Shown piece after piece: positions 45,001-48,000 of a DNA stretch of 64,000 bases. Position 1 is the first letter of the stretch, and each line of letters starts with the position of its first letter. This DNA is from an uncultured Cytophagia bacterium (GTDB lineage Bacteria; Zhuqueibacterota; Zhuqueibacteria; Oceanimicrobiales; Oceanimicrobiaceae), in NCBI GenBank assembly GCA_964539665.1, contig CAZIKB010000003.1, forward strand, positions 60,062 through 124,061. The letters run 5' to 3'. Position numbers: made by a program.

Positions 45001-48000
45001 ATCCTGCAAAAGCTCAAAGCCATGAATGTGTATGATAATACAATTATTGTCTTCATCTCTGACCATGGTGAAGAGCTTTATGAGCGTAATTATTATTTTG
45101 ATCATGCTTGCTCAATCTACGATGGTGTTTTGCGAATTCCTTTGGTCATAAAATATTCGGATGTTATTCCGGCTGGGAAAATAATGGAAAATCAGATTGA
45201 AAGTATTGATATCACCCCAACCATCCTCAATATTTTAAAAGTTCCTTTACGTGATGAATTTGAAGGTCGCAGTATATTTGGAATGATATTAGATGATTCT
45301 TCTGATGTATGGTTTCCTTCTTTTGCTGACCGCTCAATTGTCATAAATTCCATTCGAACACCGCAGTGGAAATATATTTATAATCCGGAAGATTACCATG
45401 CAGTGTGTGTAACTGGCGCCGTAGAGGATGATGGAGAAGGTTATGATGTTGAAATTGAAGAACTTTATAATATACAAACCGATCCGTCTGAGCAAGTAAA
45501 TCTGGCTGAGCAATTTCCGAATATTGCTAAAGAATTACGCGCAGAGATCATAAACTGGCTCAATACCAACAAGAAAGTACATAAAGAATATACACTGTCC
45601 AAAGAAGCAGAAAAAAGACTGCGTGCCCTGGGATACGTCAAATGAAATCCTTATCCGAATTATCTCAGCATCGAGCATAAAATTGTCATACCGAATCCGT
45701 TTTAGCGAGTGAGTAATCTGAGTTCTTACAAGATTTAGCTTTGTAGTAGTGTTTGAACCGGAAATAAATGGATAACCTGCAATAATGGACTAAAGATAGT
45801 ATTATAATTTGTTGACCTTACTATATCCAAAATTTAAGTGAAGGATGATTTGAGATGAACAAAACAAATCATAGAGGAATTTTATTCTTTTTGAAGATAG
45901 GTATAATATCCGGTTTAATGTATGGCTTAATTTTAGGCTTGGTGAGATTATTAAGTCATGACGCTGTAAGAGCCTACTATTCAGCAAATTTTACAGATGT
46001 CCTGTTTTCATATACACAGGATTTTCTTAATCAAACCGTCATAATAACTTTGCTCGTATTTATTGTAATTGAAATGACTTTCTATTTTTTAAACAAATTA
46101 TTTGCAACCGCAGATAATAAGATAGTAAAATATTCAAGAATGATCGCGATTAATGGATTTTTCTTTTTATTAATTTTCTATTATTTAAATATTCAACACT
46201 GGTTTCCATCGATGTTGTCTAATAGCGCTTTATTGTACTACATAATTATTCTCGCGGGCAATGCTTTATTACTGTTATTATTCAATCGAATCAGAAACAA
46301 AATAGTTGTTCATGATTCTTTTAAATCCATTAAATTGCCAGTAATTACTGTTATCGTTTTATTATTGTTTAGCAATGTATTTAGTTATTTTCAAAAGAGT
46401 AAATTAAAAGCTGAAACACCGATAAATGTCATAATGATTGTGATTGATGCCCTGCGCGCCGGGCAGTTAGGTTGTTACGGATATGATCTGCCTACAACTC
46501 CGAACATCGATGCATTTGCTCAAGAAAGCCTTAGATTCACGAGCAGCTTTTCACCGAGCAACCATACTAAACCTTCCACAGCATCGCTTTTTACTTCGCT
46601 CTATCCTTCGCAACATAACGTTATTCTAGGAAATAGGTCAAATAATTCCGGGGAGTATTTCTCAGATGTTTTAGATGAATCATTCAAAACGATTGCAGAA
46701 TATTTGTATGAAGCAGATTATAACACGGCCGGGTTTCTAAACCAGGGTCAATTGCGTAAATATTTGGGATTTGCACAGGGATTTATCTATTATAATTCCC
46801 GGTTAGGAAGGGCGCCGCAAATTAATCGTGAATTTTTGCGTTGGCTGCCCATGAATAAACATAGAAAATTTTTTGCATACATACATTATTTGGATGTACA
46901 CGGCCCTTATGATCCGCCTGAGAAATATCGAAAAATATTTAATGTGAATGAGCTGACCAGCGAAATTCCGGAGCGTGCTAAAAATTGGCGAAAATTTAAA
47001 AAAGACTTTGAGAGCGGTGCTTTAGAATTTACGCCTGAGGACCTGGAAAATTTGAAAGCGCTTTACAATGCTGAACTTAAATCCGTTGATGATCAGCTTG
47101 GAATACTTTTTCAGGAATTGAAAAGGCAAGGAGTATATGAAAACAGTCTAATCATAATCACGGCTGACCACGGTGAGTCGTTTGTTGAACATGGCGAAAT
47201 AGATCATGGCTCCACTTTGTTCGATGAAGTTTTACGCGTACCTTTAATAATCCATTATCCTAACCAGGAAAAAACCGGCGTAGTAGATGCAAATGTGCAA
47301 ACTCTTGATTTACTGCCGACCATTTTAGATTATTTAAATATTACGCCTTCAAAAGACTTGATGGGACAAAGTATTTTAAAGTATTCAAATGGCAGCATTG
47401 AGCACGATGAATATCCTATTTTCTGTGAAAGAAATAATCTGGTCTCATTGATCTTTGGTAAAGATAAATATATTTTTGATAAAATAGCCAGACGGGGGAA
47501 CTCTATAACTTAGAAATAGATCCGGGAGAGCGGAATAAAATTAATTCCCGGAATAGTGAATTAGAGCAGAAAATGAAAGCTATGGTTTTAGAATGGAGTG
47601 AGGCCATGAAACTCGTTAGTAAAAAGTCAGAAGGTACTAAATTAGATAAAGAAACCATCGAAAAACTTAAAAGTCTGGGATATATCAAATAAGACTGTTG
47701 AATTAAGGTCAAGTGCCATCTAATATTCTCAGTCGGGCGAATTCCATGGTTGGAAAAACGCATTCACTTCATTATTAGCCACGTGGCAGAGTGATTCCAA
47801 ATCAACGTACACTTCAGAATAAACCTAAATGAATTGTCAAATTATGATTATAAGCTGTCATTTGGTTGTCATTAAGTCATCTGTTGTCATTGATTTAATG
47901 ACCTAATGACCATGAATGACATTGTGACTGAAACAGTAGTTCAGGTATACTGTTTGTCATTGAATATTGCAATGATAATCAGTAATCATTCCACTATAAT

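What the first reader, a model, noticed from the sequence alone, without database searches (positions are those of the whole stretch)
47480..47692. Frameshift at a G5 homopolymer truncates the second LtaS-like sulfatase-fold gene; conserved C-terminus and LGYIK tail sit in another frame
In the annotated frame the gene ends ..DKIARRGNSIT* at 47513. With one extra G in GGGGG (47494-47498) it would read ..DKIARRGELYNLEIDPGERNKINS..ETIEKLKSLGYIK* and end at 47692. This restores the sulfatase C-terminal ELYNL-DP-E motif seen in the paralogue 43768 and the shared tail motif. Explanations: a homopolymer sequencing error, a recent pseudogenisation, or slipped-strand phase variation of a surface-modifying enzyme.
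Basis: seen in the sequence. Interest (0 to 1): 0.55.

Follow-up and report, generated by a model that had tools for sequence, protein, structure and literature searches.

The report
Real one-base deletion truncating a sulfatase-fold gene
A membrane-anchored sulfatase-fold enzyme gene in a polysaccharide-synthesis cluster has lost one G from a run of six, which cuts off its conserved last 64 residues; the same deletion appears in three other public assemblies, so it is a real but ordinary recent gene-inactivating mutation rather than an assembly error.

Summary
ORF 45855-47513 ends RRGNSIT* just after a G5 run (47494-47498). The -1 frame from 47498 reads ELYNLEIDPGE...LKSLGYIK* to 47692. That 64-residue tail aligns end to end with the C-terminus of an intact orthologue (E 2e-16) and keeps every invariant family residue. 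All 29 homologues aligned are single ORFs (604-651 aa). Orthologue DNA at the site has no long G run.

New evidence: three other public metagenome assemblies (VAPA01, VAPB01, VAPC01) hold contigs 100% identical to the window across the site, with different contig ends, and all carry G5. No G6 copy was found. Seven G6/G7 runs and sixteen A/T runs of 8-9 elsewhere in the window lie in unbroken ORFs. A chance assembly error is therefore unlikely.

Best reading: a genuine, recent G6-to-G5 deletion that removes half of the C-terminal subdomain and probably inactivates the enzyme. Phase variation is not supported: the tract is short, not conserved, and shows no length variation or contig break. Programmed frameshifting is not supported either: there is no slippery heptamer, no well-placed structure, and no frameshifted homologue.

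This is an ordinary finding. The shared LGY tails and the PAPS genes without a sulfotransferase are more interesting.

The parts
45855..47513 (+). Truncated reading frame of the sulfatase-fold gene: 552 aa from the first ATG. The public gene call P0001 starts at M22, is 531 aa and has the same end.
   Evidence: Pfam Sulfatase matches residues 191-496 at E 3e-47.
47494..47498 (+). G5 run, the site of the one-base deletion. The inferred ancestral state is G6 = CGG GGG GAA (R-G-E).
   Evidence: G5 is identical in L037, L038 and L039.
47511..47513 (+). Premature TAG stop in the shifted reading, four codons after the G run.
47498..47692 (+). Orphaned C-terminal coding segment in the -1 frame: 64 codons plus TAA, covering ELYNLEIDPGE...LKSLGYIK*. 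It holds invariant family residues Y551, D556, E559, L605, L608, G609 and Y610.
   Evidence: In the AlphaFold model it forms strand 547-552, helix 565-586, strand 594-596 and helix 599-607.
47573..47692 (+). 39-aa remnant ORF (MKAMVLEW...LGYIK), called as a separate gene in the other three assemblies. It is a by-product of the frameshift, and no independent function is inferred.
45855..46400 (+). N-terminal membrane domain, about residues 1-184, with five hydrophobic segments: 8-35, 56-84, 96-114, 123-146 and 154-181.
   Evidence: Kyte-Doolittle scan and long helices in the model.
43768..45645 (+). Intact upstream paralogue (625 aa, 28% identical) with the same architecture and the tail RLRALGYVK*.
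   Evidence: The syntenic pair is conserved in L020.

Best explanation
The gene encodes a roughly 612-aa enzyme. It has five N-terminal transmembrane segments followed by an S1-sulfatase-type alkaline-phosphatase-superfamily domain that carries Thr, not Cys/Ser, at the nucleophile position. It sits in a Wzx/Wzy polysaccharide cluster that also makes PAPS. In this strain one G has been lost from a G6 run (CGG GGG GAA to CGG GGG AA) at codon 548/549. Translation then reads NSIT and stops. The product lacks the last 64 residues: the fourth strand of the C-terminal beta-sheet, a long helix and the invariant terminal LGY helix. The deletion is in the organism's DNA, not an assembly artefact. It is most likely a recent loss-of-function allele, a young pseudogene, that is fixed or dominant in the sampled population. 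Shown: the frameshift, its position, its reproducibility across assemblies, the intactness of orthologues, and which parts are lost. Inferred: that the ancestral state was G6, that the truncated protein is inactive, and that the event is recent.
For: Position and homology of the two frames. All 29 homologues aligned are single ORFs of 604-651 aa carrying the tail. The syntenic orthologue in L020 is intact. Contigs L037 (VAPC010525410.1, window 46767-48263), L038 (VAPB010114570.1, 47255-48253) and L039 (VAPA010252215.1, 47068-47833) are 100% identical to the window, have different ends, and all carry G5. A look-up through the neighbouring 71-aa ORF does not depend on the tract length. It returned four contigs; the two that reach the site have G5 and none has G6. 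No contig ends at the tract. Elsewhere in the window 5 G6, 2 G7 and 16 A/T runs of 8-9 nt lie inside unbroken ORFs, and no other broken gene was seen among about 45. The assembly is therefore not prone to homopolymer errors. The model (pLDDT 87.6, pTM 0.89) places residues 549-612 as integral secondary-structure elements of the C-terminal subdomain. Seven invariant columns lie in the lost part.
Against: No reads were available, so minor G6 variants cannot be excluded. The sequencing platform of the VAPA/VAPB/VAPC data is unknown to me. The 130-kb contig behind the window may have been assembled from the same read sets, so the independent support is the three sample assemblies rather than four. 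All copies are 100% identical, so the age of the mutation cannot be measured. The downstream frame shows no decay at all, which fits equally well with a very young mutation or a still-used frame. Loss of activity of the truncated protein is inferred from conservation and a predicted structure, not tested.
Confidence: 0.75

Rival explanations
1. Sequencing or assembly artefact: the true sequence is G6 and the gene is intact.
For: A singleton frameshift at a homopolymer whose two halves both match intact homologues is the class that Antonov et al. expected to be mostly sequencing errors (PMC3711429). The other assemblies are low-coverage, with contigs of 0.8-1.5 kb. The platform is unknown, and the window contig may share reads with them.
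Against: G5 appears in three separately deposited assemblies with different contig boundaries, plus the window, and never G6. Longer and more error-prone runs (G7 x2, A9 x2, sixteen A/T runs of 8 nt or more in total) are all in frame in the window. No other broken gene was found in 64 kb.
Confidence: 0.08
2. Slipped-strand phase variation: the G tract toggles between G6 (ON) and G5 (OFF) to vary a surface-polysaccharide modification, and the sampled population is in the OFF state.
For: The gene lies in a surface polysaccharide cluster. The downstream frame is perfectly preserved. G runs of 6 or more number 7 in the window (the script counted 8 because one run lies in two overlapping ORFs) against 3.1 +/- 1.7 in synonymous-codon shuffles; 1% of shuffles reached the scripted count of 8. 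G5 runs number 5 against 13.8 +/- 3.4. This was a post hoc test.
Against: The tract is only 5-6 nt, whereas homopolymer phase variation is usually called at 7 nt or more (PMC3711429). It lies 89% of the way through the ORF. It is not conserved: orthologues read ACC GGG GAG or ACC GGC GAG. All four retrieved copies are G5, and no assembly breaks at the tract. Most G6/G7 runs simply encode Gly-Gly.
Confidence: 0.08
3. Recoding: the full-length protein is still made by -1 ribosomal slippage of tRNA-Gly on G_GGG, or by transcriptional slippage at the G run.
For: tRNA-Gly reading GGG at 47496-47498 can re-pair perfectly with GGG at 47495-47497, and the next codon would then be GAA, giving RRGELY (read from the sequence). 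A 7-8 bp hairpin lies at 47521-47552. The downstream frame is intact.
Against: There is no X_XXY_YYZ heptamer: the flanking tRNAs (Arg CGG to ACG, Asn AAC to GAA) cannot re-pair. The hairpin starts 22 nt after the run and beyond the frame-0 stop. Fold z-scores are -1.95 and -0.29, which are not significant. None of the homologues is frameshifted, so the site is not conserved. Transcriptional slippage motifs are usually 8 nt or more (PMC3711429). At most a small leak of full-length product is expected.
Confidence: 0.04
4. The truncated 548-residue protein is a functional shortened variant rather than a dead gene.
For: The metal-site and nucleophile residues (D198, T238, D438, H439) all lie upstream of the break. 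The Pfam Sulfatase domain, residues 191-496, is complete.
Against: Seven invariant and several near-invariant columns lie in the lost segment. No full-length homologue among the 29 aligned lacks it. The segment supplies a strand of the C-terminal sheet and two helices in the model.
Confidence: 0.05

Closest known systems
Homopolymer-indel frameshift pseudogenes (singleton 'fs-genes' validated by homology; GeneTack survey, PMC3711429)
   Same: A single-base indel in a short mononucleotide run. Both halves match one intact homologue. The frameshift is not conserved in relatives. The downstream frame has not yet decayed.
   Different: The same allele was recovered from three further assemblies, which argues against the sequencing-error origin that the survey expected for most such singletons.
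Poly-G/C contingency loci in capsule, LOS or O-antigen modification genes of host-adapted bacteria (phase variation by slipped-strand mispairing; named from general knowledge and PMC3711429, PMC8808543)
   Same: A G tract inside a surface-glycan modification gene whose length decides whether the full protein is made.
   Different: The tract is 5-6 nt rather than 7 nt or more. It is near the 3' end, is not conserved in orthologues, and no length heterogeneity was detected. The organism is an uncultured one known only from metagenome assemblies.
dnaX-type programmed -1 ribosomal frameshifting
   Same: A -1 shift would join the two frames.
   Different: There is no slippery heptamer, no stimulatory structure at 5-9 nt, and no conservation among homologues.
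S1 (formylglycine-dependent) sulfatases, e.g. PDB 9fo1, 3ed4, 7oz8, and the related phosphonate monoester hydrolase 4uph
   Same: Best sequence and fold matches: NCBIfam arylsulfatase at 151 bits and Foldseek E about 2e-20. The match includes the C-terminal SGSH_C subdomain with the ELY-x-L-x-x-DP-x-E motif that the frameshift cuts off.
   Different: The C/S-x-P-x-R signature is replaced by T-K-P-S-T, with T238 invariant in the family. There is an extra five-segment membrane domain. NCBIfam scores are far below the family cut-offs.
LtaS / EptA / MCR-type membrane-anchored alkaline-phosphatase-superfamily transferases
   Same: The architecture of five N-terminal membrane segments followed by a sulfatase-fold domain, with Thr at the nucleophile position.
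   Different: Sequence similarity is marginal: LtaS 28 bits against a cut-off of 970, and MCR-12 22 bits. The C-terminal subdomain is of the S1-sulfatase type.

Membership tests
Recent frameshift pseudogene (genuine indel) | The reading frame is broken relative to intact orthologues, and both parts are homologous to one protein. | tested here: met
Recent frameshift pseudogene (genuine indel) | The lesion is reproducible in independent sequence data. | tested here: met
   G5 is present in VAPA01, VAPB01 and VAPC01 contigs with different ends. Reads themselves were not available.
Recent frameshift pseudogene (genuine indel) | Loss of function of the product. | not testable with these tools
   Inferred only: seven invariant columns and integral secondary-structure elements are lost.
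Phase-variable contingency locus (slipped-strand mispairing) | A hypermutable repeat, for homopolymers usually 7 nt or more. | tested here: not met
   The tract is G5, or G6 if repaired. The criterion comes from PMC3711429.
Phase-variable contingency locus (slipped-strand mispairing) | Tract-length heterogeneity between or within populations. | tested here: inconclusive
   All retrieved copies are G5 and no contig breaks at the tract. Consensus sequences cannot show minor variants.
Phase-variable contingency locus (slipped-strand mispairing) | The tract is maintained in orthologues. | tested here: not met
   L020-L022 read ACC GGG GAG and L023/L024 read ACC GGC GAG.
Programmed -1 ribosomal frameshift | The frameshift site is conserved among homologues. 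| tested here: not met
   All homologues are single ORFs.
Programmed -1 ribosomal frameshift | An X_XXY_YYZ slippery heptamer with a stimulatory structure 5-9 nt downstream. | tested here: not met
   The sequence is A_CGG_GGG / G_GGG_AAC. The hairpin lies 22 nt downstream, past the stop, and the z-scores are not significant.
S1 formylglycine-dependent sulfatase | Sulfatase fold with the C-terminal subdomain. | tested here: met
   Pfam Sulfatase and SGSH_C. The top Foldseek PDB hits are S1 sulfatases, TM 0.6-0.73 on the target.
S1 formylglycine-dependent sulfatase | The C/S-x-P-x-R motif that is converted to formylglycine. | tested here: not met
   T-K-P-S-T aligns to the A/C-S-P-A-R stretch of 4uph. 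T238 is invariant across 30 sequences. Both other sulfatase-fold genes in the window also have Thr there.
LtaS/EptA-type membrane-anchored transferases | A multi-span N-terminal domain followed by an AP-superfamily domain with a Thr nucleophile. | tested here: met
   Five hydrophobic segments, helices in the model and T238. Topology and catalysis were not tested.
LtaS/EptA-type membrane-anchored transferases | Sequence membership: the family HMM score is above its cut-off. | tested here: not met
   LtaS scores 28.2 bits against a cut-off of 970, and MCR-12 scores 22.2 against 1200.

The most novel reading that the evidence does not exclude
The G5/G6 tract could act as a low-frequency reversible switch, or be leaky through tRNA-Gly slippage on G_GGG. 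It would turn one polysaccharide-modifying enzyme off and on in an uncultured bacterium known only from metagenomes, as part of a cluster whose genes carry more G6-G7 runs than synonymous shuffling predicts. That would extend contingency-locus behaviour to short tracts outside host-adapted pathogens.
Probability: 0.08. Interest if true: 0.45.

Novelty: new member of a known kind. Interest (0 to 1): 0.15.

Why it matters
The matter is mainly practical. The public gene call (531 aa) is a truncated allele and should be flagged as a frameshifted gene, not treated as a short family member or silently 'repaired'. Biologically it suggests strain-level loss of one modification step of a probably sulfated and carbamoylated surface polysaccharide. 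It also provides a natural mutant lacking the invariant C-terminal LGY tail that six proteins of this cluster share. The frameshift itself is an ordinary event.

Tried and rejected
1. Exact-protein look-ups of the truncated ORF, of P0001 and of the GH39 neighbour found nothing. The window's own contig is not retrievable.
2. Scans of genome contigs and metagenome contigs with the repaired protein found only distant relatives, with long matches at 30% identity or less and short fragments up to 53%, and no same-species DNA.
3. A protein search with the 132-residue C-terminal part returned one 47% hit and not even P0001. The word index is too sparse for short queries, and partial gene products appear not to be searchable, so the absence of G6 fragments there is uninformative.
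4. The minus-strand 86-aa ORF 47503-47763 is not on record anywhere and is treated as spurious.
5. An Rfam search of 45600-48700 gave only a chance-level miRNA hit, E 0.15. No terminator-like site was found in 47400-48700.
6. The overlapping ORFs 61276-62013 and 61766-62389 were suspected to be a second frameshift. They are two different genes, GT2 and DUF2304, and the overlap comes from the longest-ORF rule.
7. Literature searches for the VAPA/VAPB/VAPC and SRR6439360 accessions and for DUF2061 gave nothing useful.
8. A repair by deleting two bases, giving RRELY, was considered. It is less parsimonious than restoring one G, although the Gly before ELY is not invariant.

Full report
**Observation.** The window has a G5 run at 47494-47498. 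ORF 45855-47513 (552 aa) reads ...KYIFDKIARRGNSIT and stops at TAG 47511-47513. The frame one base back, starting at 47498, is open for 64 codons: ELYNLEIDPGERNKINS...KLDKETIEKLKSLGYIK, with TAA at 47690-47692. In that frame the nearest upstream stop is TAA at 47480-47482, so any frame change must occur within 47483-47510. Alignment with orthologues (T-G-E-L-Y-D-L) places it at the G run.

**Is it more than chance?** The 64-residue tail aligns to residues 560-624, the very end, of orthologue P0002 with 43% identity, 75% positives and E 2e-16 in a single comparison. Repairing the frame extends the Pfam SGSH_C match from profile positions 2-70 to 2-147 of 154. I aligned the repaired protein with 28 database homologues and the window's paralogue, 30 sequences in all. 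The repaired protein keeps all 39 invariant columns. Seven of them (Y551, D556, E559, L605, L608, G609, Y610) are encoded only in the shifted frame. All the homologues aligned are single ORFs of 604-651 aa ending in L-x-x-L-G-Y-[ILVM].

**What the gene is.**
- Residues 1-184 contain five hydrophobic segments, which are long helices in the model.
- Residues 191-496 match Pfam Sulfatase at E 3e-47.
- The best NCBIfam and PDB sequence matches are arylsulfatase, choline sulfatase and PehA/phosphonate monoester hydrolase. LtaS and MCR models score only 22-28 bits.
- An AlphaFold model built on alignment A1 (pLDDT 87.6, pTM 0.89) matches S1 sulfatases best in Foldseek, E about 2e-20.
- The position of the formylglycine Cys in C-x-P-x-R is occupied by an invariant Thr, in the motif T238-K-P-S-T.

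The protein therefore has LtaS/EptA-like architecture and a Thr nucleophile position, but an S1-sulfatase-type catalytic and C-terminal domain. It is not a canonical sulfatase and not a member of the LtaS family.

**Gene context.** The gene sits in a 64-kb, single-strand polysaccharide cluster containing:
- Wzx-like flippases and a Wzy-like polymerase
- many glycosyltransferases
- carbamoyl-phosphate synthase and two carbamoyltransferases
- GH39
- three sulfatase-fold proteins
- four stand-alone Phosphodiest proteins
- an ATP sulfurylase-Phosphodiest fusion
- APS kinase

. Gene order around the frameshifted gene is conserved in another MAG, L020 (GCA_046757525.1): GH39, sulfatase 641 aa, sulfatase 624 aa, DUF2061, then two Phosphodiest genes. 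There the orthologue is intact.

**What is lost.** In the model, truncation after residue 548 removes four elements:
- strand 547-552, the fourth strand after 522-526, 529-534 and 537-542
- helix 565-586
- strand 594-596
- the terminal helix 599-607 with the LGY tail

The metal-site and nucleophile residues lie upstream of the break. Loss of function is therefore inferred from conservation and fold, not shown.

**Artefact or real?** The window's own contig could not be retrieved. No same-species DNA turned up in the genome or metagenome scans. Exact look-ups of small neighbouring ORFs did succeed.
- The DUF2061 gene (48291-48590) occurs on VAPA011043755.1 and on a Logan contig of SRR6439360. 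Both are 100% identical to the window over 47824-48966 and 47824-48822.
- The 39-aa remnant ORF (47573-47692) is called as a separate gene on VAPC010525410.1 (window 46767-48263), VAPB010114570.1 (47255-48253) and VAPA010252215.1 (47068-47833).
- All three are 100% identical to the window and carry G5.
- A look-up through the 71-aa ORF 47906-48121 does not depend on the tract length. It returned four contigs. The two that reach the tract have G5 and none has G6.
- The three assemblies have different contig ends, and none breaks at the tract.
- Within the window, five G6, two G7 and sixteen A/T runs of 8-9 nt lie in unbroken ORFs. No other broken gene was found; the one suspect pair is two distinct genes.

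A chance assembly error is therefore unlikely. Three caveats remain. I saw no reads. I do not know the sequencing platform. The 130-kb contig may have been assembled from the same read sets.

**Phase variation.** The orthologous DNA reads ACC GGG GAG or ACC GGC GAG, so the tract is specific to this lineage. A tract of 5-6 nt is below the 7 nt or more used to recognise homopolymer phase variation (PMC3711429). It lies 89% of the way into the ORF. G runs of 6 or more are somewhat more frequent than in synonymous-codon shuffles: 7 in the window (8 in the script, which counted one run twice) against 3.1 +/- 1.7, with 1% of shuffles reaching 8. G5 runs are rarer than expected, 5 against 13.8 +/- 3.4. 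This was a post hoc test, and most of these runs simply encode Gly-Gly. Phase variation is not supported, but only read-level data can exclude it.

**Recoding.** tRNA-Gly could slip from GGG (47496-47498) to GGG (47495-47497) and then read GAA. However, the neighbouring tRNAs cannot re-pair, so there is no X_XXY_YYZ heptamer. The only hairpin (47521-47552) begins 22 nt downstream, beyond the frame-0 stop. Fold z-scores are -1.95 and -0.29. No homologue is frameshifted. At most a trace of trans-frame product is expected.

**Verdict.** This is a genuine, recent single-G deletion (G6 to G5) that truncates a membrane-anchored, Thr-type sulfatase-fold enzyme of a polysaccharide cluster. Most likely it is a young pseudogene or a strain-level loss of one modification step (confidence 0.75). 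Estimates for the rivals:

| Rival | Estimate |
|---|---|
| Artefact | 0.08 |
| Phase variation | 0.08 |
| Functional truncated form | 0.05 |
| Recoding | 0.04 |

It is an ordinary member of a well-known kind of lesion. Its value is in correcting the annotation and in pointing to the more unusual features of the cluster, which are listed in the noticed-in-passing items of this report.

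Noticed in passing
window 38611-38628, 45628-45645, 47675-47692, 48576-48590, 52970-52987, 58169-58183; also L020 and L023: Six otherwise unrelated proteins of the cluster end in the same tail, [RK]-L-x-x-L-G-Y-[ILV] followed by at most one more residue and the stop. They are a cytosolic-looking 459-aa sulfatase-fold protein, both membrane-anchored sulfatase-fold paralogues, DUF2061, a 63-aa protein and APS kinase. The counterparts in two syntenic loci from other organisms carry the same tails, as does a 543-aa Phosphodiest protein there. 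L605, L608, G609 and Y610 are invariant in the 30-sequence alignment. It looks like a shared C-terminal docking or recognition motif. I found no description of it.
   Followed up: partly
window 54799-58183 and the whole window: PAPS supply genes are present: an ATP sulfurylase fused to a Phosphodiest (NPP-type) domain, 878 aa at 54799-57435, and APS kinase at 57560-58183. None of the roughly 45 proteins matches a canonical sulfotransferase Pfam family. The cluster instead holds three sulfatase-fold proteins, four stand-alone Phosphodiest proteins and this fusion. L023 also places the orthologue next to ATP sulfurylase and APS kinase. Who transfers the sulfate is an open question.
   Followed up: partly
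window 37249-38628, 43768-45645, 45855-47692: All three sulfatase-fold proteins have Thr where S1 sulfatases have the formylglycine Cys/Ser, and they lack the Arg of C-x-P-x-R. The motifs are T-L-P-T-H, T-W-P-S-L and T-K-P-S-T. So they are unlikely to be true sulfatases despite their best matches.
   Followed up: partly
window 47692-48291: A 600-nt spacer separates the sulfatase-fold gene from DUF2061, against 46 nt in L020. It contains repeated TTGTCATT (47866-47873, 47884-47893, 47954-47963) and inverted ATGAC/GTCAT copies (47868-47921), several promoter-like hexamer pairs at chance level, and a 71-aa ORF (47906-48121) with no family match. It may be a regulatory region or a remnant of an insertion.
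   Followed up: partly
window 29628-30786: A 1.16-kb stretch has no ORF over 54 aa on either strand. It lies between a GT4 gene and a PMT_2-type gene, in a window that is otherwise tightly packed with every gene on the + strand.
   Followed up: no
window, G runs listed: G5 runs are depleted (5 against 13.8 +/- 3.4) while G6-G7 runs are enriched: 7 in the window, or 8 in the script because one run lies in two overlapping ORFs, against 3.1 +/- 1.7 in synonymous-codon shuffles. Most of the long runs encode Gly-Gly. The cause is unknown and the test was post hoc.
   Followed up: partly
window 21552-27620 and 33947-35746: Dedicated carbamoyl-phosphate synthase small and large subunits, two carbamoyltransferases and an SxtJ-like protein lie inside the polysaccharide cluster. 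This suggests a carbamoylated glycan.
   Followed up: no
window 47521-47552: A hairpin, CCGGGA(G) with a 16-18 nt loop and (U)UCCCGG, lies inside the orphaned C-terminal coding segment, within the codons for D-P-G...S-R-N. It is not significant against shuffles and is probably coincidental.
   Followed up: yes
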